From the NCBI GenBank assembly GCA_017938435.1, contig JAGBBO010000008.1, positions 74,525-138,524 of the forward strand: a stretch of 64,000 nucleotides of DNA. The letters run 5' to 3'. A program made the position numbers and the translations under genes. The DNA comes from Alphaproteobacteria bacterium (GTDB lineage Bacteria; Pseudomonadota; Alphaproteobacteria; Rs-D84; CACZYB01). The first letter of the stretch is position 1. Each line of letters begins with the position of its first letter. This document shows, in pieces, positions 841 through 52,374 of the stretch. The notes beneath the pieces were generated by a model that had not been told where the DNA came from, made no database searches, and saw nothing but the letters and a program-made list of their open reading frames with translations.

Positions 841-915
841 TCTTAAAAATCAAACAAGCGTTTGAATTTTGTTTTTTTTAGTTTATTTTAATGGAATTTT
901 TTCTTTTTTTTGTTA

Positions 916-944
916 TTGACAATTTATTTTTTTTTGTTTAATAT
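916..944 (+). promoter_or_regulatory. sigma70-like promoter (TTGACA-17-TAATAT) for the 1002 ORF
   Basis: Consensus -35 with a 17-bp spacer. It is near-identical to the promoter at 49937-49964. Confidence 0.55.
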
Positions 945-1001
945 AATGAGCAAGCGATTCGAAAATGGGTCGTATAATAAGTAAAAATATGGGGGTTAAA
1001 A

Positions 1002-1583
1002 ATGAGAAAAAAGACATTTGTTGAAGAATTACATGAACCACATATTGATTTTTCTGATATAAGTGATTTTTTTATTAATACTATTCCTGGTAGTATTATA
1101 TTGGTGTTGGGTATGTTTGCAGCTGGAGTATTTGGAATATATAAATTGGCTGATAAAGGCTTTGAAAAGTTTGAGAGTAATACTACTTATGGTATAAGCG
1201 AAGCTACTATTTTAGCAAAACTTTCACAACAAGATGTTTCTGGAAATGGATATACTGTTTTTACTAAACCTATTGAAACAAAATGTGATTATGAATTTGT
1301 TTTGGATATTGATAATGATGGCGTTTATGATAAAAATAAAGATATTATTATAGAAGGTGAAAAAATACCTTTTGTAATTGCAAAAGAAAATAACAAAGCT
1401 GTTTTATTTGAACAAAAGGATAAATTAGGTGAAGTAAAAGTTAGAAAACTTATTGGGATTGTTGATAAAAATAATAAGTGTAATGTTGTTGGAGATATTC
1501 CTAGTGATAAGTATCGTGAAAAAAATGAATCTTATCAAAAAGCAAAACAACTTTTCGAAGATAACTATTTGAACCAAAGATAA
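1002..1583 (+). CDS. hypothetical membrane-anchored protein, paralog A of a duplicated cassette
   Basis: 193 aa with an N-terminal TM helix. About 40% identical to the ORF at 50032-50559 (LDIDxDGxYxKNKDI; C-terminal KNES...NQR). Has an RBS and its own promoter and terminator. Confidence 0.7.
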   Translation: MRKKTFVEELHEPHIDFSDISDFFINTIPGSIILVLGMFAAGVFGIYKLADKGFEKFESNTTYGISEATILAKLSQQDVSGNGYTVFTKPIETKCDYEFVLDIDNDGVYDKNKDIIIEGEKIPFVIAKENNKAVLFEQKDKLGEVKVRKLIGIVDKNNKCNVVGDIPSDKYREKNESYQKAKQLFEDNYLNQR

Positions 1584-1599
1584 TTTCTTTACTTTAAAT

Positions 1600-1630
1600 A
1601 AAACCCCGTCATTTGATGGGGTTATTTTTT
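1600..1630. terminator. bidirectional rho-independent terminator
   Basis: Hairpin aaaaccccgtcatttgatggggtt followed by a T-run. Sits between two convergent genes. Confidence 0.6.
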
Positions 1631-2767
1631 TACTGCGAAATTTTTACCTTCCTTTGGTAAAAGTATATAATATGAACCTTGGGCGTGTTGACGGCCAGCC
1701 TTTGAAAATGCACGTTTTCCTTTGCCCCAGAATAGGTCGGCACGAATTGCACCTTTGATTGCAGCCCCAATATCTTGGGCAACTACGGTGCGTTCGATTT
1801 TTTCACCATCGGCATCCTTTGTCGTTAAGAATAAAGGAAGTCCCAATGGAATAAATTCAGGATCAACAGCAATGCTTCGTTCAGGTGTAAGTGGAACACC
1901 CATTGCCCCAATTGGCCCTTCACCTTCTATATCTCGGAAGAATATATATCTGTCATTTTCAAGGATAAGTTTTTTTGTTTGGGTTGGATGAGAGTCGAGC
2001 CAAGCCTTTACCGAAGTCATAGAATACCCGCCTTCGGGTTTTATATTATGCCTCATTAAAATAGAACCAATTCCTTTGAATGAATAGCCGTTATTTCCAG
2101 CATATCCAATGCGGTAATATTTTCCATTCGGAGTTTTTACGACGCCGGACCCTTGGATATGAAGGAGTATTACATCAGACTGATTTTTCGCCCAGAAAAG
2201 GACAGGTGCCTTATTTCTTAACTTTCCATTTTCAATTTCACGACGGGAAAGATATTTACCACCATTTGCCGGTAAATCCGAAGGTTTTCCATAAATTGGG
2301 TTAAGGTATGAACAAGATGGTTTTATGTCACCTTCTAATTCAGTTTCATAGTAACCAGTAATAGTTCCAGTCGTAGAATTATCCATAGTTTGAACCTTGT
2401 ATGGTGCGAACCAATATTCAAAATAAGTTTTTGCCAACTCCTTTGTAATAGGGGTTTCTGGAATTGCATTACATGCGTTTTTCATAAAATCTGCAGAAAT
2501 AACAATTTGTGATGAGGCAACGAAATCACCTTCGGACATAATTTTTATACATGATTTTTTAAATGCTTCCAAAGCCTTACTTGGGTCGTCGGTTTGCCAA
2601 CCAGAAAGATCCGAAAACTTGAGTTCGGTAAGTTTCATCTTTTTTTCAGATTTTTTGAATGAAATTCGATTATCAATGCGAGATGAACGGCAGGAGCTTA
2701 GCCCTAAACAGACTATACTCACAAATTTTAAAAGATTTATTTTCTCTCCTGCCATTTGTTCCCTCAT
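1622..2767 (-). CDS. mltA: membrane-bound lytic murein transglycosylase A (MltA-like, 3D domain) lipoprotein
   Basis: Signal peptide with lipobox LGLSSC. MltA-like domain order. Confidence 0.6.
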   Translation of the reverse strand: MREQMAGEKINLLKFVSIVCLGLSSCRSSRIDNRISFKKSEKKMKLTELKFSDLSGWQTDDPSKALEAFKKSCIKIMSEGDFVASSQIVISADFMKNACNAIPETPITKELAKTYFEYWFAPYKVQTMDNSTTGTITGYYETELEGDIKPSCSYLNPIYGKPSDLPANGGKYLSRREIENGKLRNKAPVLFWAKNQSDVILLHIQGSGVVKTPNGKYYRIGYAGNNGYSFKGIGSILMRHNIKPEGGYSMTSVKAWLDSHPTQTKKLILENDRYIFFRDIEGEGPIGAMGVPLTPERSIAVDPEFIPLGLPLFLTTKDADGEKIERTVVAQDIGAAIKGAIRADLFWGKGKRAFSKAGRQHAQGSYYILLPKEGKNFAVKK

Positions 2768-18949: not shown

Positions 18950-19501
18950 ATGAGATGTCCTTTTTGTGCTTCGCCTGATACACAAGTAAAAGATTCCAGA
19001 GTCGCAGAAGATGGATCTTATATCAAAAGAAGAAGATTTTGTACCGAGTGTGGTTCAAGATTTACTACTTTTGAACGGGTTCAATTAAAGGATATTATGG
19101 TAAAAAAATCTAATGGAATTGTTGTTCCATTTGAACGCGAAAAACTTCTTAATTCTATAAAAATTGCATGTAAAAAGCGACCTATTTCTGACGAGCGAAT
19201 TGATAAAATTGTATCATCTATACAACGACAACTTGAAACAACAGGAGAGGGTGAAGTTTCATCGCGTGAAATTGGTAGTTTAGCAATGGAAATACTTTCA
19301 TCACTTGATATTGTTGCGTATATAAGATTTGCATCGGTGTATTATAATTTTGATACTAAAGATGATTTTTCAAAATTTATTGAAAAAATAAAAAAAGAAG
19401 TTTTGGATGAAAAAGAATCTGATGAAGTTTTAACAAAATCTTATGATAAATGTTCGTTAGATACAGATTTTAGTCCTGCTAAAAAAGATGAATTATTTTA
19501 A
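18950..19501 (+). CDS. nrdR: transcriptional repressor NrdR
   Basis: Zinc ribbon (MRCPFCASPDTQVKDSR...CTECGSRFTTFE) plus an ATP-cone domain. Confidence 0.9.
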   Translation: MRCPFCASPDTQVKDSRVAEDGSYIKRRRFCTECGSRFTTFERVQLKDIMVKKSNGIVVPFEREKLLNSIKIACKKRPISDERIDKIVSSIQRQLETTGEGEVSSREIGSLAMEILSSLDIVAYIRFASVYYNFDTKDDFSKFIEKIKKEVLDEKESDEVLTKSYDKCSLDTDFSPAKKDELF

Positions 19502-19573
19502 ACGAAAGGAAAAAAAATGATTGAAGAAAAACAAAAAACGAAAGGAAAAGAAATGATTGAAGAAAAACAAAAA
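19502..19573 (+). repeat. perfect-but-one 36-bp tandem duplication spanning the RBS and start codon
   Basis: acgaaaggaaaaRaaatgattgaagaaaaacaaaaa x2. This duplicates the MIEEKQK N-terminus. Confidence 0.8.
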
Positions 19574-20005
19574 GAATCTTTAAGAAAAACTGATAAAGAA
19601 CCAGCTCTTTCAAAGAAAGAAGTTGATGCTATTTTATCAAGTTTGTCACAATCAACACTAGAAGATTTAGAACTTTTGGATAATGATTTAACCGAAGCGG
19701 AAAAGAATGCTTTTTTAAGGGCAAGGGAAATTCGTAAATCTTTTCCAAAATACAAGATGACTCAATTTGGTATGATTGATCAAGAATTGCTTTCGAAAAT
19801 GACTTATCAATCTGTTTTAGGTGTAACTTTTTCGGATAGTAAAAAGTATAAATTAGTTAGAAAATTTAATCGTCGGATTGTTCGTAATTATATACTTTCT
19901 GCAATACTTGGTGGTTTGGTTGTTGGTGGGGCAATTATGGCACCAAAAATTAAAGATGAAATAAAAACAGCATTAGCAAAACAACATACTGAACTTTCTA
20001 GGTAA
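19517..20005 (+). CDS. hypothetical protein with C-terminal TM anchor
   Basis: 162 aa. Duplicated N-terminus and a C-terminal hydrophobic helix (ILSAILGGLVVGGAIMAP). Confidence 0.5.
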   Translation: MIEEKQKTKGKEMIEEKQKESLRKTDKEPALSKKEVDAILSSLSQSTLEDLELLDNDLTEAEKNAFLRAREIRKSFPKYKMTQFGMIDQELLSKMTYQSVLGVTFSDSKKYKLVRKFNRRIVRNYILSAILGGLVVGGAIMAPKIKDEIKTALAKQHTELSR

Positions 20006-30765: not shown

Positions 30766-30942
30766 TTGTCAGAGTGCAAAAAAATTATTCCCTGCCTATT
30801 GGTGGGGAATTTTTTTGTAAAAATATATTGACAATACAAAAAATTTGTTTATAATCTGAAAAATTATGAGTTTTTTCTTATTGATTAAACTATAAAAAGG
30901 TATATAGTTTGACAATATTTTAAATTATATGGAGAATAAAAA

Positions 30943-40589: not shown

Positions 40590-40745
40590 TTTCAATTCAT
40601 TATTTTATTAGTGTAAGTTTTTATGAATAAAATTAAAGCAAGCGTTTGATTTTTGAAAAATATTAAAAAATTCTTGCAAATTCAAAAAGATATTCTATAA
40701 TCTTTTATAGTTTAAAAGTAAAATCGTAAATAGGAGTAGTTCAAA

Positions 40746-41532: not shown

Positions 41533-42372
41533 ATGAAAAAATTTATGTTATTTTTGAGTGCTGTTGTTACAACTTTTTCACCGGTATTGGCTGGGGAAAA
41601 TAAAAAATCAAACAAGCGTTTGAATTTTGAACTTATGGAACCTGTAAAACTTAAAAACCCGACTGCGTTGAATTGGGGATTAGAGGCTGGTGGTCCAAAA
41701 CATACCATTTATAAAAAGGTTAAACCTGCAACTATTGTTATTGAAGAAACAAAAGTTGTTGAACCTATTGTTGTGGAAACTCCTGTAAAAGAGGAAGTTA
41801 AACCAGTTGTAATTAAAACAGAAGAAAAAAAGGTTGAACCTATTAAACAAGAAAATCCTGTTGTAAATATTCCAGAGGAACCTTTTGAATTAAAAGAAGA
41901 GGCTCCTGTTGTAAAAGAGGAAAAACAAGAAATATCTCAAACAGATAAAAATATAGATGAGGCTAAAAAACTTTTGCGTGTTGCTGAGAAATTAGCAAAT
42001 TCTGTTGCAGAAGATGATGAAGTTGTTATCGAAAAGAAAGAGGTTGTGAAGCCTGTTATTGCAACAAGTTCAGAAAAACCAAGTTTCATTATCAAATTCG
42101 CAAAAGATGCAGAAGAACTTAAAAAATCTGATGAAAAAAAGATTGCTGATATGATTCCTGCAATTAAGGCAAATAGTGATGTAACAGTGAAAATTATTTC
42201 TTATTATTCTGCAAATTCAGGAAGAAATATTGCATTTTCAAGACTTTTGAATGCAAGAAAAGTTCTTCTTGAAAAAGATGTTCCTACATCACAGATTATG
42301 ATTATGGTTTTAGAAGATGAAGAAAAAAATGCTCCTAAATCAGACATATTGGAAGTATTTTTTGTTCGTTAA
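41533..42372 (+). CDS. secreted protein with Pro/Glu/Val/Lys-rich repeat linker and degenerate OmpA-like C-terminal domain
   Basis: Signal peptide ending VLA. A (V/E/K/P)n low-complexity region. The C-terminal ~100 aa resemble OmpA_C (SANSGRNIAFSRLLNARKVLL). Confidence 0.5.
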   Translation: MKKFMLFLSAVVTTFSPVLAGENKKSNKRLNFELMEPVKLKNPTALNWGLEAGGPKHTIYKKVKPATIVIEETKVVEPIVVETPVKEEVKPVVIKTEEKKVEPIKQENPVVNIPEEPFELKEEAPVVKEEKQEISQTDKNIDEAKKLLRVAEKLANSVAEDDEVVIEKKEVVKPVIATSSEKPSFIIKFAKDAEELKKSDEKKIADMIPAIKANSDVTVKIISYYSANSGRNIAFSRLLNARKVLLEKDVPTSQIMIMVLEDEEKNAPKSDILEVFFVR

Positions 42373-49265: not shown

Positions 49266-49296
49266 GAAGGCAGGGCTTTGTTACCTGCCTTTATTT
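49266..49296. terminator. bidirectional rho-independent terminator
   Basis: aggcagggctttgttacctgcctttatttttt. Confidence 0.55.
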
Positions 49297-49856
49297 TTTG
49301 AAAAAATATCGATATAAAATTGTTGTTTAAGAATTTCTTTTTCTGTTTTTGGTAAATAGAATCGAGTAAGTTTATTTATATATTGTTCCAATGTTTGTTT
49401 TTTATGCATGTGATTTTTACAAAAATTAAGTTCGTTTTTATTATAATTTATTTCATTTTTTATTGTTTCTTTTTTATTGATTAGGCGATTAAGTTCATTT
49501 TTATATTTTAATACAGATGATTTTGAAAGGGTATTTGATGGATATTTTTTGATTATTGAAATTATTTCCTTTTTTAAATTTAAAGTTTTTTGGAACAATT
49601 CAATTTCTTCAATATTGTAAATCCTATTTATGCTGGAATTTAATTCTTTTTCAAATTTATTATAGATTTGGTTTGATTGTTTTGTTTTTATATATTGAAG
49701 TTCTTTTATTAAATAAGATTTTTCTTTTTCAAGATGTTTATATTTTATATTTATAATTTTTATTTCCGATAAAAGGTTTATTATTTTGTAATAATCTTCT
49801 TTTGAAATACTATCATTTTCGATGTTTTCAATTAAAATTTTATTAAAAGTTGTCAT
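49281..49856 (-). CDS. hypothetical coiled-coil protein
   Basis: 191 aa, Lys/Glu/Asn/Ile-rich with heptad-like repeats. No domain recognised. Confidence 0.45.
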   Translation of the reverse strand: MTTFNKILIENIENDSISKEDYYKIINLLSEIKIINIKYKHLEKEKSYLIKELQYIKTKQSNQIYNKFEKELNSSINRIYNIEEIELFQKTLNLKKEIISIIKKYPSNTLSKSSVLKYKNELNRLINKKETIKNEINYNKNELNFCKNHMHKKQTLEQYINKLTRFYLPKTEKEILKQQFYIDIFSKNKGR

Positions 49857-49936
49857 TTATACCTCCATTTTGTATGGGAGAACATAAAGTAATTTATTTG
49901 AAAAATCAATAGGATAGATTTCTTTTATTTTTTTAA

Positions 49937-49964
49937 CTTTATATTATTGACAATTTATTTTTTT
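49937..49964 (+). promoter_or_regulatory. sigma70-like promoter (TTGACA-16-TAATAT), duplicate of 916-944
   Basis: About 30 nt identical to the promoter upstream of 1002. Followed by the shared UTR motif AAGCGATTCGAAAATG. Confidence 0.55.
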
Positions 49965-50031
49965 TGTTTAATATAATAATAAAGCGATTCGAAAATGAAT
50001 TGAATGATAACTAAAAATAGGGAGTTTAAAA

Positions 50032-50559
50032 ATGAGTTTAAGAGATAGAATAGAAGATTTTATATATAATGTTGATGAAATTCAAATTGCTATCTTGTTA
50101 GTTTCTCTTATTATAGGTACTGCAACTGCTATAGGTGTTTCGTCTAATAAATCTGAATTAAAAAATACTAATTTTGAAATAAAAGAAGCTCCTGTTTTAG
50201 CAAAGTTTTCAGAACAAAATATTGGGGGAAATAGTCATAGTATTTCAACAAACTATGATTATAGATTTATTCTTGATATTGATGAAGATGGTCTTTATAA
50301 CAAAAATAAAGATATTGTTATTGCTGGTGATAATATTCCTTATTACCTTTTAGAAAAAGATAATAGAATAGTTTATCTTGAAGTAACTCGTAAAGATAAT
50401 GTTCTTAGAAGATCTCCTCTTGTTGTTAAAGATAAAGAAGAGAAGTCGCATTTGGTTTCTGAAGTTGAAGATTGTTGTAATGTTAAATTTTGGAAAAAAA
50501 ATGAATCATTTAATAAAACAAACCAAATTTTTAAAGATAAATATATAAATCAAAGATAA
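50032..50559 (+). CDS. hypothetical membrane-anchored protein, paralog B of the duplicated cassette
   Basis: 175 aa with an N-terminal TM helix. Paralogous to 1002-1583. Confidence 0.7.
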   Translation: MSLRDRIEDFIYNVDEIQIAILLVSLIIGTATAIGVSSNKSELKNTNFEIKEAPVLAKFSEQNIGGNSHSISTNYDYRFILDIDEDGLYNKNKDIVIAGDNIPYYLLEKDNRIVYLEVTRKDNVLRRSPLVVKDKEEKSHLVSEVEDCCNVKFWKKNESFNKTNQIFKDKYINQR

Positions 50560-50562
50560 ATA

Positions 50563-50592
50563 AAACCCCGTCAGATGACGGGGAATTTTTTA
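50563..50592. terminator. bidirectional rho-independent terminator
   Basis: aaaaccccgtcagatgacggggaatttttt. Nearly the same hairpin as at 1600-1630. Confidence 0.65.
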
Positions 50593-52374
50593 ACCAAACA
50601 ATTTTGCAAAGAAACCTTTTTTCTGTTTTTTGGTCTTTTGCATTTTGTTTGCAGGACTTTTCTTGATAAGTTCAGTATTTTTTTGTTTTTTACTATCGTT
50701 TCTGAACTTTGTGTTTGCAGGTTCTTTTTCACGGAAATATGTTCCAAGTTTACGATCCAAGTCCATTTTTTCAAGAACAAATGATTTTTCATTTAAAATA
50801 TTATCATCGCCATTGATTATAATGCTTGTATCGTATCTTTCTTCTAATTCAAGCAAGTCATCGCGTTTTTGGTTAAGTGTATAAAGTGCGACATCTGAAG
50901 ATACAGCAACATAAATGCGTTTTGCAGTCTTTTTCAAAAGTTCCTCTTCGATATGTCTTAAAAGGTTGATAGATGCAGTTTGAACTGATGGAACAAATCC
51001 AGTGCCAAGACAATGTGGGCAAACCTTGTGTCCAACTTCTAAGAAACTTGGGCGAAGGCGTTGGCGAGAAATTTCCATCAAACCAAATTGTGAAAGTTTT
51101 GCCATTTGAACCTTTGCTCTATCTTTCTTTAATGCTTCACGCATTTTTTGTTCAACAGCTTGATTATGTTTTGGATCAAGCATATCAATAAAGTCAACAA
51201 CTACTAAACCACCCATATCGCGAAGACGAAGTTGACGACCAATTTCAATAGCTGATTCAATATTTGTTTTAAGTGCAGTTTCTTCGATATTTCTTTCTTT
51301 TGTTGCACGGCCAGAGTTAACATCTATTGCTGTTAAAGCCTCGGTTGGATTGATTACCAAATATCCACCACTAGGAAGTTTTACTATTGGGTTTTGAACG
51401 GCTTCGAGTTGAGCTTCTATTTTATTTTCTATAAAAAGAGGAGCCTTGTCATTATATTTTTTAATCTTTTTAATTTCATCAAAACCAATTTGTTTTGCAA
51501 ATTCAATAGCTTGTCTATAACCTTCATCCCCTTCAATAAGGATTTCATCAACATCCGGTTTATACATATCACGGATAGTTCTGTGAAGCAAATCACCTTC
51601 TTCGTGAATAAGGGCAGGTGCAGTAGATGCAAGTGTTGTTTTTCTTATATCATTCCAAAGGTTAATAAGATAGTTATAATCGCCAAGAATATCTTTGTAT
51701 GTTCTGTTGCAACCAGCAGTTCTTGCAATAACAGTCATACCTTCTGAAATAGGTAAATCCTTTAAAATATTTTTAAGTTCTTTTCTTTCTTCACCGTATG
51801 GAATTTTACGAGATACGCCATATTTTACTCGTTTATTACTGTTTGGCATAAGAACACAATAACGGCCAGCAAGTGAAATATAAGTTGTAATTGCGGCACC
51901 TTTGTTTCCACGCTCTTCCTTTTCCACCTGAATAAGAAGTATTTGGCCGGATTTGATAACTTCTTGTATTTTATATTTTTTAAGAAGAAGTTTTCTTTTT
52001 TCTTCGGCTTGTTTTTCAGCAATTTCATCTTCATCATCAGAAAATGTTTCAACACCAGTATCTTGGCTATTATCTTCATCTTCTTCTTCGTCAGATGATG
52101 TTATTAACAAAGCCTTTTTATCTTCTATAGGGATTTGGAAATAGTCCGGGTGTATTTCAGAAAATGGTAAAAATCCGTGTTTAACGCCACCATATTCCAC
52201 AAACGCAGATTGAAGTGAAGGTTCAACACGAATCACTTTTGCCAAATAAATATTACCCTTAATTTCCTTTTTAGTTATTGATTCTACTTCGAAATCTTCT
52301 AATATATTATTTTCTGTAATAGCTACACGAGTTTCCTCGGAATGTGTAGCATCTATCAATATTTTCTTTGTCAT
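50590..52374 (-). CDS. rne: ribonuclease E/G family endoribonuclease (short RNase E with acidic insertion in S1 domain)
   Basis: 594 aa with an N-terminal S1 domain interrupted by a Ser/Asp/Glu-rich insert. The catalytic DNase-I-like core and a Zn-link CPxCxGxG (CPHCLGTG). Confidence 0.85.
   Translation of the reverse strand: MTKKILIDATHSEETRVAITENNILEDFEVESITKKEIKGNIYLAKVIRVEPSLQSAFVEYGGVKHGFLPFSEIHPDYFQIPIEDKKALLITSSDEEEDEDNSQDTGVETFSDDEDEIAEKQAEEKRKLLLKKYKIQEVIKSGQILLIQVEKEERGNKGAAITTYISLAGRYCVLMPNSNKRVKYGVSRKIPYGEERKELKNILKDLPISEGMTVIARTAGCNRTYKDILGDYNYLINLWNDIRKTTLASTAPALIHEEGDLLHRTIRDMYKPDVDEILIEGDEGYRQAIEFAKQIGFDEIKKIKKYNDKAPLFIENKIEAQLEAVQNPIVKLPSGGYLVINPTEALTAIDVNSGRATKERNIEETALKTNIESAIEIGRQLRLRDMGGLVVVDFIDMLDPKHNQAVEQKMREALKKDRAKVQMAKLSQFGLMEISRQRLRPSFLEVGHKVCPHCLGTGFVPSVQTASINLLRHIEEELLKKTAKRIYVAVSSDVALYTLNQKRDDLLELEERYDTSIIINGDDNILNEKSFVLEKMDLDRKLGTYFREKEPANTKFRNDSKKQKNTELIKKSPANKMQKTKKQKKGFFAKLFG

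What the first reader, a model, noticed from the sequence alone, without database searches (positions are those of the whole stretch)
884..1632. Duplicated self-contained gene cassette (promoter + 5' UTR motif + small membrane protein + terminator), copy A
Two copies of a 175-193-aa N-terminally anchored protein, ~40% identical, lie 49 kb apart (second copy at 49935-50592). Each has a near-identical consensus promoter (TTATTGACAATTTATTTTTTTTGTTTAATATAAT), a conserved UTR element (AAGCGATTCGAAAATG, containing the palindrome TTCGAA) and a near-identical terminator hairpin (AAAACCCCGTCA..GA(U)GGGGTT). The regulatory DNA is conserved more strongly than the protein. That implies purifying selection on regulation or gene conversion of the flanks, and co-regulation by a factor that recognises the UTR palindrome.
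Basis: seen in the sequence. Interest (0 to 1): 0.55.

Follow-up and report, generated by a model that had tools for sequence, protein, structure and literature searches.

The report
Recombining two-locus membrane-protein gene cassette
Two copies of a small, very fast-evolving membrane-anchored protein gene from an uncultured ruminant-gut alphaproteobacterium share a near-identical promoter, an mRNA 5' hairpin and a terminator, and related strains swap, replace or delete the coding cores between the same two chromosomal sites by recombination in those shared flanks; the protein's function is unknown.

Summary
Copy A (ORF 1002-1583, 193 aa) and copy B (ORF 50032-50559, 175 aa) are 37% identical. 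Each has one transmembrane segment. The 34-nt promoter shows no substitutions between copies, only a T-run of 9 versus 8. The UTR motif and terminator are also shared.

Related assemblies change the reading:
- A-type and B-type cores occur at either locus. One NCBI MAG is B/B and the window genome is A/B. Locus 2 can be empty.
- Recombinants are mosaics whose breakpoints differ (promoter spacer, start codon, last ~45 nt of the ORF). That indicates homologous recombination or gene conversion, not a site-specific element.
- The ORF evolves at dN/dS of about 1 (0.5-1.9), against 0.02-0.07 for the adjacent RNase E/G gene. Its synonymous divergence is incongruent with that of the flank.
- The promoter and UTR are far better conserved than synonymous sites.

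The "TTCGAA palindrome" is better read as the 5' arm of a hairpin near the 5' end of the mRNA. A divergent relative destroys the palindrome but keeps the pairing through three compensatory changes.

The protein family is tiny: 12 clusters among 1.84 billion representatives, with no Pfam, NCBIfam, PHROG, PADLOC, PDB or phage hit. I read it as an ordinary mechanism acting on an orphan, probably arms-race, envelope gene. Interest is moderate.

The parts
845..871 (+). 27-nt motif AAAAATCAAACAAGCGTTTGAATTTTG (palindrome TCAAAC/GTTTGA). It lies 45 nt upstream of the -35 of copy A. Whether it belongs to the cassette is uncertain.
   Evidence: 3 copies in the window against 0.08 expected. It travels with the cassette in L009. 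It lies downstream of the locus-2 terminator in L017, L019 and L025.
916..947 (+). Copy A promoter: -35 TTGACA at 916-921; spacer with a T-run at 927-935 (9 T); overlapping -10 hexamers TAATAT at 939-944 and TATAAT at 942-947.
   Evidence: No substitutions against copy B. The T-run is 7, 8 or 9 in near-identical locus-1 sequences.
954..973 (+). Copy A predicted 5'-proximal mRNA hairpin: 5' arm GCGAUUC at 954-960, loop 961-966, 3' arm GGGUCGU at 967-973.
   Evidence: minimum-free-energy structure, -7.3 kcal/mol, z = -2.9; 90.5% of cells paired across 6 variants, with 3 compensatory pairs.
991..995 (+). Copy A Shine-Dalgarno sequence GGGGG, 6 nt before the ATG.
   Evidence: Read directly. Conserved as GGAG or GGGGG in all cassettes.
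1002..1583 (+). Copy A ORF, 193 aa (A-type): one transmembrane segment (~28-46), DIDNDG loop (residues 102-107), conserved C-terminal KNESYxK..Q.F.D.Y.NQR.
   Evidence: Identical to NCBI MBP3615571.1 (J6J27_01535).
1602..1631 (+). Copy A intrinsic terminator (stem 1602-1623 plus T-run). It abuts the stop of the convergent MltA gene (ORF 1622-2767 on the minus strand).
   Evidence: The loop sequence is specific to locus 1 and stays with the locus in recombinants.
49947..49977 (+). Copy B promoter: -35 TTGACA at 49947-49952; T-run at 49958-49965 (8 T); -10 TAATAT at 49969-49974 and TATAAT at 49972-49977.
49985..50002 (+). Copy B predicted 5'-proximal hairpin: CGAUUC at 49985-49990, loop 49991-49996, GAAUUG at 49997-50002.
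   Evidence: minimum-free-energy structure, but weak (-4.5 kcal/mol, z = -0.3)..
50020..50024 (+). Copy B Shine-Dalgarno sequence GGGAG.
   Evidence: Read directly.
50032..50559 (+). Copy B ORF, 175 aa (B-type): one transmembrane segment (~19-37), DIDEDG loop.
   Evidence: Identical to MBP3615623.1 (J6J27_01800). The AlphaFold model has pLDDT ~90 over residues 41-175.
50566..50592 (.). Copy B terminator, bidirectional. It is shared with the convergent RNase E/G gene (ORF 50590-52374 on the minus strand).
   Evidence: One search finds it on both strands.

Best explanation
This is a paralogous pair of monocistronic expression cassettes for a lineage-restricted, rapidly evolving, membrane-anchored protein. 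They sit in two fixed intergenic slots: locus 1 between the diacylglycerol-kinase and MltA genes, and locus 2 between rpoZ (with a 191-aa ORF) and RNase E/G.

Each cassette carries a strong sigma-70-type promoter, a short leader beginning with a small hairpin, a good Shine-Dalgarno sequence and an intrinsic terminator shared with the convergent neighbour.

The flanks stay nearly identical for two reasons that act together:
1. Purifying selection on the expression signals (shown by rate comparison).
2. Repeated homologous recombination or gene conversion, both between the two loci and between strains. The conserved promoter-leader and the conserved last ~45 nt of the ORF plus terminator serve as homology arms (shown by mosaics and by cores that change locus).

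As a result, the coding core behaves as an exchangeable allele. A or B can occupy either slot, one genome can be A/B or B/B, and slot 2 can be empty.

The conserved UTR element most likely acts at the RNA level. I infer it is a hairpin near the 5' end of the mRNA of the kind that protects transcripts from 5'-end-dependent RNase E decay, not a protein operator.

The protein has one transmembrane helix, a beta-rich domain with a DxDxDG-type loop and a C-terminal helix. Its function is unknown. High dN/dS, presence/absence variation and horizontal exchange point to a dispensable envelope protein in an arms race (immunity or exclusion against a toxin or phage, or host interaction). This last step is inference only.
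For: Locus swapping:
- A-type P0003 and P0004 lie at locus 2.
- A-type P0009 lies at locus 2.
- B-type P0014 lies at locus 1 with 3 kb of locus-1 genes on both sides.
- NCBI MAG IJ473 encodes two B-types: IJ473_02990 and IJ473_00270. The latter is 1 residue from P0014.

Empty slot 2: L017 and L019 lack the cassette although their RpoZ is identical to the window's.

Mosaics (diagnostic-site map):
- L008: UTR 9 A-like and 2 B-like sites; core 250 B-like and 16 A-like; the last ~10 diagnostic ORF sites mostly A-like (a few B-like); the downstream 37 all A-like.
- L001: an A core whose -35 region is replaced, with the breakpoint in the spacer T-run.
- L026: a B core with an A-like hairpin arm.

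Rates:
- Cassette dN/dS is 0.5-1.9, against 0.02-0.07 for RNase E/G.
- Histories are incongruent. Window versus L006: RNase E/G pS 0.53, cassette pS 0.13. L006 versus L010: RNase E/G pS 0.09, cassette pS 0.27.

Regulatory block: only 1-3 differences in ~91 nt between cassettes with pS 0.13-0.27, and 0 of 34 promoter substitutions between A and B with pS 0.37. A distant homologue (L024, 23% identity) has an unrelated promoter and UTR, so the conservation is clade-specific.

Hairpin. Background on 5' stem-loop stabilisers: references to Emory et al. 1992 and Bouvet & Belasco 1992 listed in PMC3997798.
Against: - No transcription start site, expression or half-life data exist. The hairpin is short (6-7 bp). 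Copy B's version is no more stable than shuffled sequence (z = -0.3). In one variant (L008) it is not the minimum-free-energy fold.
- The covariation rests on 6 distinct sequences, and all three double changes come from one of them (L025). I derived the structure from these same sequences.
- Except for the window (A/B) and MAG IJ473 (two B-types, loci inferred rather than read), genotypes come from single metagenome contigs, not complete genomes.
- NG86/JC estimates are rough in a 25-31% GC genome, where synonymous sites saturate early.
- dN/dS near 1 fits relaxed constraint as well as diversifying selection.
- Protein function and membrane topology are unresolved.
Confidence: 0.7

Rival explanations
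1. One reading: the flanks are conserved only because a trans-acting DNA-binding regulator recognises the TTCGAA palindrome at the start of the transcribed region and co-regulates both copies.
For: AAGCGATTCGAAA is nearly invariant across the close cassettes: 17 of 19 carry it, and L008 and L009 have AAGTG. It lies at about +1, a typical operator position. The promoter spacer sequence is also invariant apart from T-run length, which is more than sigma-70 contacts require.
Against: In L025 the palindrome is destroyed (GATTTGGAAA). The changes are matched by complementary changes in the 3' arm: C-G to A-U, C-G to U-A, G-U to U-A. The three UTR types have different 3' arms that all pair with the motif. 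A 6-bp palindrome is short for an operator. This model does not explain cores that change locus.
Confidence: 0.12
2. Generic strong promoter: the shared upstream sequence is the organism's common promoter and leader, used by many unrelated genes, so there is no cassette duplication.
For: Consensus -35 and -10 elements are expected in an AT-rich genome. One other perfect TTGACA..TATAAT pair exists at 30828. Only about 64 kb of the genome could be inspected.
Against: No other copy with up to 3 mismatches in the window. In 17 fetched loci the pattern occurs once each, always in front of a family member. The only hit in 241 million JGI metagenome records is the same cassette. There are 0 hits in GTDB representatives and viral contigs. 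The homology runs through the UTR, ORF and terminator.
Confidence: 0.04
3. Site-specific mobile cassette (integron-like or recombinase-driven): the unit is inserted and excised at a specific site, possibly the 27-nt palindromic motif next to it.
For: Presence/absence at locus 2 between strains with identical RpoZ. The 27-nt motif flanks the cassette: upstream at locus 1, downstream at locus 2 in L017, L019 and L025. It accompanies the cassette in L009. It is over-represented in the window, 3 copies against 0.08 expected.
Against: No integrase or recombinase gene adjoins either locus in any strain. The motif is never found on both sides of a cassette. Breakpoints differ between recombinants (promoter spacer, ATG, 3' end of the ORF), as expected for homologous rather than site-specific recombination. 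The 'empty' allele retains a cassette-type terminator, which suggests an internal deletion.
Confidence: 0.07
4. Phase-variable or tunable expression: slipped-strand changes in the T-run of the promoter spacer switch or tune each copy, as in the Mycoplasma hyorhinis vlp genes. This is compatible with the main explanation rather than exclusive of it.
For: The T-run is 9, 7, 8, 8 and 9 in locus-1 sequences that encode an identical DAGK protein, and 7 in L008. This moves the spacing between 15, 16 and 17 to TAATAT, or 18, 19 and 20 to the overlapping TATAAT. The vlp precedent (homopolymer tract in the promoter of every vlp gene) is summarised in PMC10502178.
Against: The tract is short (7-9 nt). 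The window holds 21 A or T runs of 8 or more, so such runs are common here. At locus 2 the run is 8 in the eight sequences with the canonical promoter that were read (L010 has TTCTTTTTT). Homopolymer lengths in metagenome contigs are error-prone. No within-population read data were examined.
Confidence: 0.12
5. Assembly artefact: the A-at-locus-2 and B-at-locus-1 contigs are chimeras created by assemblers crossing the ~95-nt repeat.
For: Several short contigs stop inside or just before the promoter or UTR (L013-L016), which shows the repeat disturbs assembly. L009 joins a locus-1-type upstream to a locus-2 downstream and could be chimeric.
Against: Swapped cores are flanked on both sides by kilobases of the 'wrong' locus in independent assemblies and assemblers: L008 (MEGAHIT), L001 (Logan), GCA_016648615.1 and L025. 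L008's core is not identical to any locus-2 B core (94% nucleotide identity to the window's B), so it cannot be a splice of co-resident sequences. MAG IJ473 has two distinct B-type proteins.
Confidence: 0.03

Closest known systems
Small variable-envelope-protein gene families with conserved expression flanks (e.g. the Mycoplasma hyorhinis vlp genes)
   Same: Each gene is its own transcription unit. The promoter and leader are highly conserved and contain a homopolymer tract, while the coding regions diverge. Variation arises by recombination and indels (PMC10502178, citing Citti & Wise 1995).
   Different: There are only two slots, embedded between housekeeping genes, not a cluster. The tract is 7-9 T rather than a long poly(A). 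The protein is not a lipoprotein and has no internal repeats. ON/OFF switching has not been shown. The host is a Gram-negative-type alphaproteobacterium, so exposure of the protein at the cell surface is unproven.
Ectopic gene conversion or concerted evolution between bacterial paralogues (established knowledge: e.g. tufA/tufB, Neisseria opa loci)
   Same: Non-allelic homologous recombination between dispersed, directly oriented copies yields mosaic genes and homogenised segments. Breakpoints are variable.
   Different: Here the conserved (homogenised or selected) parts are the regulatory flanks and the ORF end. The cores are kept as two deeply divergent types (37% amino-acid identity), and each core is replaced as a whole.
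5'-terminal stem-loop mRNA stabilisers (ompA and papA leaders in E. coli; Emory et al. 1992 and Bouvet & Belasco 1992, references in PMC3997798)
   Same: A short hairpin lies within a few nucleotides of the predicted 5' end of a highly expressed envelope-protein mRNA. Pairing rather than sequence is conserved.
   Different: The TSS is unmapped. The stem is only 6-7 bp, with G-U pairs. No decay data exist. The RNase E/G homologue of this organism is uncharacterised (by coincidence it is the neighbour of copy B).
DxDxDG / EF-hand-like calcium-binding loops (established knowledge)
   Same: D-I-D-(N/E)-D-G-(V/L)-Y-(D/N), followed by an invariant Asp 8 residues later. D/N alternation is kept in distant family members. 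The loop lies in a high-confidence part of the model.
   Different: No Pfam EF-hand, FG-GAP or other domain hit. Position 12 is Lys, not Glu/Asp. The compartment is unknown because topology is unresolved.

Membership tests
Sigma-70-type promoter | -35 and -10 hexamers close to TTGACA/TATAAT with 16-18 nt spacing | tested here: met
   TTGACA-17-TAATAT (copy A) and TTGACA-16-TAATAT (copy B), 10 of 12 matches, with an overlapping perfect TATAAT 3 nt downstream. Function has not been tested.
Intrinsic (Rho-independent) terminator | GC-rich hairpin followed by a T-run just after the stop codon | tested here: met
   Stems at 1602-1623 (9 bp) and 50566-50583 (7 bp; found on both strands).
5'-terminal mRNA-stabilising stem-loop | Base pairing conserved across variants despite sequence change | tested here: met
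   90.5% of cells paired, against 23-46% for slid controls. Three pairs show two-sided changes, and 12-16 of 500 shuffles reach the observed values. Only 6 sequences were available, and the structure was derived from them.
5'-terminal mRNA-stabilising stem-loop | Hairpin begins within ~0-4 nt of the transcript 5' end and lengthens mRNA half-life | not testable with these tools
   The TSS is only inferred from the -10 position (about 951-954 against a stem start at 954). No RNA data are available.
Phase-variable promoter (vlp-type homopolymer spacer) | Homopolymer tract between -35 and -10 whose length differs among otherwise near-identical strains | tested here: inconclusive
   7, 8 or 9 T at locus 1, but 8 in the eight canonical locus-2 sequences read. 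The tract is short, and contig homopolymer lengths are unreliable.
Phase-variable promoter (vlp-type homopolymer spacer) | Reversible ON/OFF expression linked to tract length | not testable with these tools
   Needs read-level or experimental data.
Integron-type or recombinase-driven gene cassette | Adjacent integrase or recombinase, and a recombination site at each cassette boundary | tested here: not met
   The neighbours are PS decarboxylase, CDP-alcohol phosphatidyltransferase, DAGK, MltA and BirA at locus 1, and MiaB-like, RpoZ, a 191-aa ORF, RNase E/G and an amidase at locus 2, in all strains. The 27-nt motif is only ever on one side. Breakpoints vary.
Any described protein family (Pfam, NCBIfam, PHROGs, PADLOC, PDB sequences) | Significant profile match | tested here: not met
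   No hit below E = 0.04 in any library. Foldseek against PDB and BFVD gave its best E at 0.2 and 0.03, with TM-scores of 0.3 or less.
EF-hand / DxDxDG calcium-binding loop | DxDxDG sequence with acidic ligands, and metal binding | tested here: inconclusive
   The sequence motif is present and conserved. There is no domain-model hit. Metal binding and compartment are untestable here.
Polymorphic-toxin immunity or anti-phage defence gene | Linkage to a toxin, effector or defence gene, or homology to known immunity or defence proteins | tested here: not met
   No PADLOC hit. No toxin-like neighbour at either locus. No relatives in phage, plasmid or viral-contig collections. Only the evolutionary pattern (dN/dS near 1, gain and loss) resembles such genes.

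The most novel reading that the evidence does not exclude
The two slots form a minimal, recombination-driven variation system for an abundant envelope protein in an uncultured ruminant-gut alphaproteobacterium. Divergent cores (A, B, B') are shuffled between slots and strains through conserved expression arms. Output may be tuned by the spacer T-run, and the neighbouring polar 27-nt motif may be involved in uptake or recombination. The protein would be an orphan immunity, exclusion or host-interaction factor of a new fold.
Probability: 0.12. Interest if true: 0.65.

Novelty: new member of a known kind. Interest (0 to 1): 0.4.

Why it matters
It gives a clean natural example in which the expression signals of a gene are kept almost invariant while the protein evolves at a near-neutral or faster rate and is exchanged as a module between two chromosomal slots and between lineages.

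For uncultured gut Alphaproteobacteria it flags one of the few obviously arms-race-type loci. It also supplies a compact, probably strong promoter-leader-terminator set that could serve as a genetic part.

It corrects the reading of the UTR "palindrome" from a DNA operator to an RNA hairpin. It does not reveal a new mechanism, and the protein's function remains unknown.

Tried and rejected
- Rfam scan of the whole window: only a tRNA, so there is no known riboswitch or leader.
- Pfam, NCBIfam, PHROGs, PADLOC and PDB sequence searches of both proteins, the L025 extra ORF and the 191-aa neighbour: nothing significant.
- GTDB representative genomes: the protein-pattern scan and the promoter-pattern scan both found nothing, so this clade is evidently not in that collection.
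- Viral contigs, phage records and plasmid records: nothing.
- I considered that the 27-nt motif and the UTR motif share a binding consensus (AAGCGnTTnGAA). I rejected this: my alignment was off by one, and the pattern is at chance level.
- I considered a conserved upstream small ORF in the leader. I rejected this: 19 codons in copy A against 2 codons in copy B (read).
- A more divergent family member (L024) was fetched to test deep conservation of the promoter and UTR. It has unrelated signals.
- I tried to pair genotypes within single genomes. Only the window MAG and MAG IJ473 could be paired.
Full report
**1. Observation**

The two ORFs exist as described. Copy A is 1002-1583 (+), 193 aa. 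Copy B is 50032-50559 (+), 175 aa. They are 37% identical, E=3e-32.

A nucleotide alignment of the two loci and the repeat finder (families D1-D3, D5, D12) show homology running from about 95 nt upstream of the ATG to the terminator.
- The 34-nt promoter string is exact in copy B (49944-49977). In copy A it differs only by one extra T (0 expected by chance).
- AAGCGATTCGAAAATG is exact at 952-967 and 49982-49997.
- Both copies end in GC-rich hairpin terminators: 1602-1623 and 50566-50583.
- No third family member and no third promoter copy is present in the window.
- Each protein has one hydrophobic segment. The N-terminal flanks are net acidic, so the orientation in the membrane cannot be called.

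**2. Source and family**

Both proteins are identical to hypothetical proteins of an NCBI MAG named 'Alphaproteobacteria bacterium': J6J27_01535 and J6J27_01800. Contig names point to ruminant gastrointestinal metagenomes. The window is 30.9% GC and the two ORFs are 25-27% GC.

The family is tiny. A profile search of 1.84 billion representative proteins finds 12 clusters. There is no significant hit in Pfam, NCBIfam, PHROGs, PADLOC or PDB sequences. There are no relatives in phage, plasmid or viral-contig collections.

The AlphaFold model of copy B is confident over the domain (pLDDT ~90 for residues 41-175). It shows a beta-rich domain and a C-terminal helix. Foldseek finds nothing significant in PDB or BFVD. 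Conserved features are N.xFE[IV]KE, a DxDxDG-type loop (DIDNDG / DIDEDG) and the C-terminal KNES[FY]xK..Q.F.D.Y.NQR.

**3. What related strains show**

Orthologues of both types occur in related assemblies (A-type 63-90% identical, B-type 65-95%). Their genomic positions were unexpected.
- A-type P0003 and P0004 lie at locus 2 (rpoZ ... RNase E/G). So does A-type P0009.
- B-type P0014 lies at locus 1 (DAGK ... MltA) with 3 kb of locus-1 genes on each side.
- NCBI MAG IJ473 encodes two B-type proteins: IJ473_02990 (P0012) and IJ473_00270 (P0040, one residue from P0014). That genome is therefore B/B where the window genome is A/B. A contig carrying P0012 (L004, from a different assembly than MAG IJ473) has an RNase E/G gene 99.3% identical to the window's.
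- Two strains whose RpoZ protein is identical to the window's have no cassette at locus 2 (L017, L019). About 130 nt remain there, including a cassette-type terminator (AAAACCCCGTCGAATCGGCGGGG) and a 27-nt-like motif.

**4. Mosaic structure**

An alignment of whole cassettes and a map of the 331 sites that distinguish copy A from copy B show clear mosaics.
- L008: the UTR is A-like (9 A, 2 B). The core is B-like (250 B, 16 A). The last ~10 diagnostic ORF sites are mostly A-like (with a few B-like sites), and all 37 downstream sites are A-like.
- L001: an A core at locus 2. Its -35 region is replaced, the breakpoint lies in the spacer T-run, and the SD and terminator are B-like.
- L026/L027: a B core with the A-type hairpin arm.
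- P0009: the protein is itself chimeric between two A subtypes.

The breakpoints differ from case to case. That is the signature of homologous recombination or gene conversion, not of a site-specific element. Terminator loops and far-upstream sequence stay with the locus.

**5. Rates**

Estimates use NG86.
- The cassette ORF has dN/dS of 0.5-1.9 in all comparisons. It is highest for B versus B' (1.6-1.9), and about 1-1.8 in the N-terminal third against 0.4-0.7 in the C-terminal part.
- The adjacent RNase E/G gene, measured the same way, gives 0.02-0.07.
- Synonymous divergence of the cassette is incongruent with the flank. Window versus L006: RNase E/G pS 0.53, cassette pS 0.13. L006 versus L010: RNase E/G pS 0.09, cassette pS 0.27. 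Cassettes therefore move between lineages.
- Given the cassettes' own synonymous divergence, the 92-nt promoter-leader is far too conserved: 2/91, 3/92 and 1/91 differences at pS 0.22, 0.13 and 0.27 (P = 5e-8, 1e-3, 1e-11). Between A and B the promoter has 0 of 34 substitutions at pS 0.37 (P = 1.5e-7). The rest of the UTR is only mildly conserved (12/54; P = 0.015).
- A distant homologue (L024, 23% identity) has an unrelated promoter and leader.

I conclude that both selection on the expression signals and recombination operate. Caveat: in such AT-rich DNA synonymous sites saturate early, so absolute dS values are unreliable. The contrasts are the evidence.

**6. The UTR element**

The leader exists in at least four versions. 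In all of them the segment (G)CGAUUC(G) can pair with a downstream arm that differs between versions: GGGUCG(U), GAAUUG, CGAGUC. The hairpin is the minimum-free-energy structure in 4 of 5 variants folded.

In L025 the 5' arm itself has changed (UAGAUUU), which destroys the TTCGAA palindrome. The 3' arm (AUGUCUA) restores three pairs by two-sided changes.

On six distinct sequences, 90.5% of cells pair, against 23-46% when the partner is slid. Three pairs show compensatory changes, and 12-16 of 500 shuffles reach the observed values.

With the -10 at 939-947, transcription should start at about 951-954, so the hairpin (954-973) would sit at or within ~3 nt of the 5' end. This is the arrangement of known 5' stem-loop stabilisers (Emory et al. 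1992; Bouvet & Belasco 1992; references in PMC3997798). The evidence is suggestive, not conclusive: few sequences, a short stem, and a weak copy-B hairpin.

**7. The promoter**

TTGACA is followed by a spacer containing a T-run, then overlapping TAATAT and TATAAT hexamers. The T-run is 9, 7, 8, 8 and 9 in locus-1 sequences that share an identical DAGK protein, and 7 in L008. It is 8 in the eight locus-2 sequences with the canonical promoter that were read (L010 has TTCTTTTTT). This recalls homopolymer-spacer phase variation as in the M. hyorhinis vlp genes (PMC10502178). However, the tract is short, such runs are common here (21 runs of 8 or more in the window), and contig data are not adequate. 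I keep this as a minor, non-exclusive possibility.

**8. Is the promoter generic?**

There is no other copy in the window. It occurs once per locus, always before a family member, in 17 fetched loci. There are 0 hits in GTDB representative genomes and viral contigs. The single hit in the JGI metagenome collection is again the cassette at locus 1.

**9. Verdict**

The finding is real. It is best explained as a paralogous expression cassette whose regulatory flanks are held constant by selection and double as homology arms for exchange of two divergent coding cores between two slots and among strains.

The mechanism is of a known kind: ectopic or inter-strain homologous recombination in a small variable gene family. 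The protein is an undescribed orphan whose evolutionary behaviour suggests an arms-race role, which is inferred and not shown.

Interest 0.4; novelty: new member of a known kind.

Noticed in passing
window 845-871, 40629-40655, 41603-41629: A 27-nt motif AAAAATCAAACAAGCGTTTGAATTTTG (palindrome TCAAAC/GTTTGA) occurs three times, all on the + strand (16-nt core: 3 found against 0.08 expected). One 100%-identical copy lies inside the ORF 41533-42372 (a secreted-looking protein). The other two are intergenic, just after terminators and upstream of promoters. A variant (AAAAATTCAAGCAAGTGTTTGAATTTTT) lies next to the locus-2 terminator in L017, L019 and L025. Its function is unknown: an operator, an uptake or polar sequence, or a small repeat.
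   Followed up: partly
L017 3476-3665; L019 3476-3662: An 'empty' allele of locus 2: the cassette promoter and ORF are missing in strains with an RpoZ protein identical to the window's. What remains is a cassette-like terminator, the 27-nt-like motif and a separate RNase E/G terminator.
   Followed up: yes
L025 1048-1488: In one lineage an extra 146-aa ORF with its own SD sequence follows the cassette ORF 15 nt after its stop codon and before the terminator, making a two-gene operon. It has no Pfam, NCBIfam, PHROG or PADLOC hit.
   Followed up: partly
window 49281-49856 (-): The 191-aa ORF divergent from copy B is only 18% GC and looks coiled-coil-like. It is absent from locus 2 in L006 and, judging from L010's intergenic sequence (which resembles L006's), probably in L010 too. 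In L001 it is replaced by a shikimate-kinase-domain gene plus a 271-aa ORF. The left side of slot 2 is therefore itself variable.
   Followed up: partly
window 50559-50566: The window's copy B lacks a 14-nt segment between the stop codon and the terminator that most other full-length cassettes carry, of both types and at both loci (TTTCTTTACTTTAA; diverged in L001, L006 and L010). L026 also lacks it.
   Followed up: no
L013-L016 (contig ends): Several short metagenome contigs carrying the identical DAGK gene end inside or just before the cassette promoter or UTR. L015 runs from the locus-1 upstream region into a B-type UTR. This is consistent with assembly breaks at the repeat or with strain mixtures.
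   Followed up: partly
window 19500-19571: A 36-nt tandem duplication (97% identical) duplicates the ribosome-binding site and first codons of ORF 19517-20005 (MIEEKQK...MIEEKQK), directly after an NrdR-like gene (18950-19501).
   Followed up: no
window 30828: This is the only other perfect TTGACA ... TATAAT pair in the window (TTGACAATACAAAAAATTTGTTTATAAT). Its spacer is unrelated to the cassette promoter.
   Followed up: no
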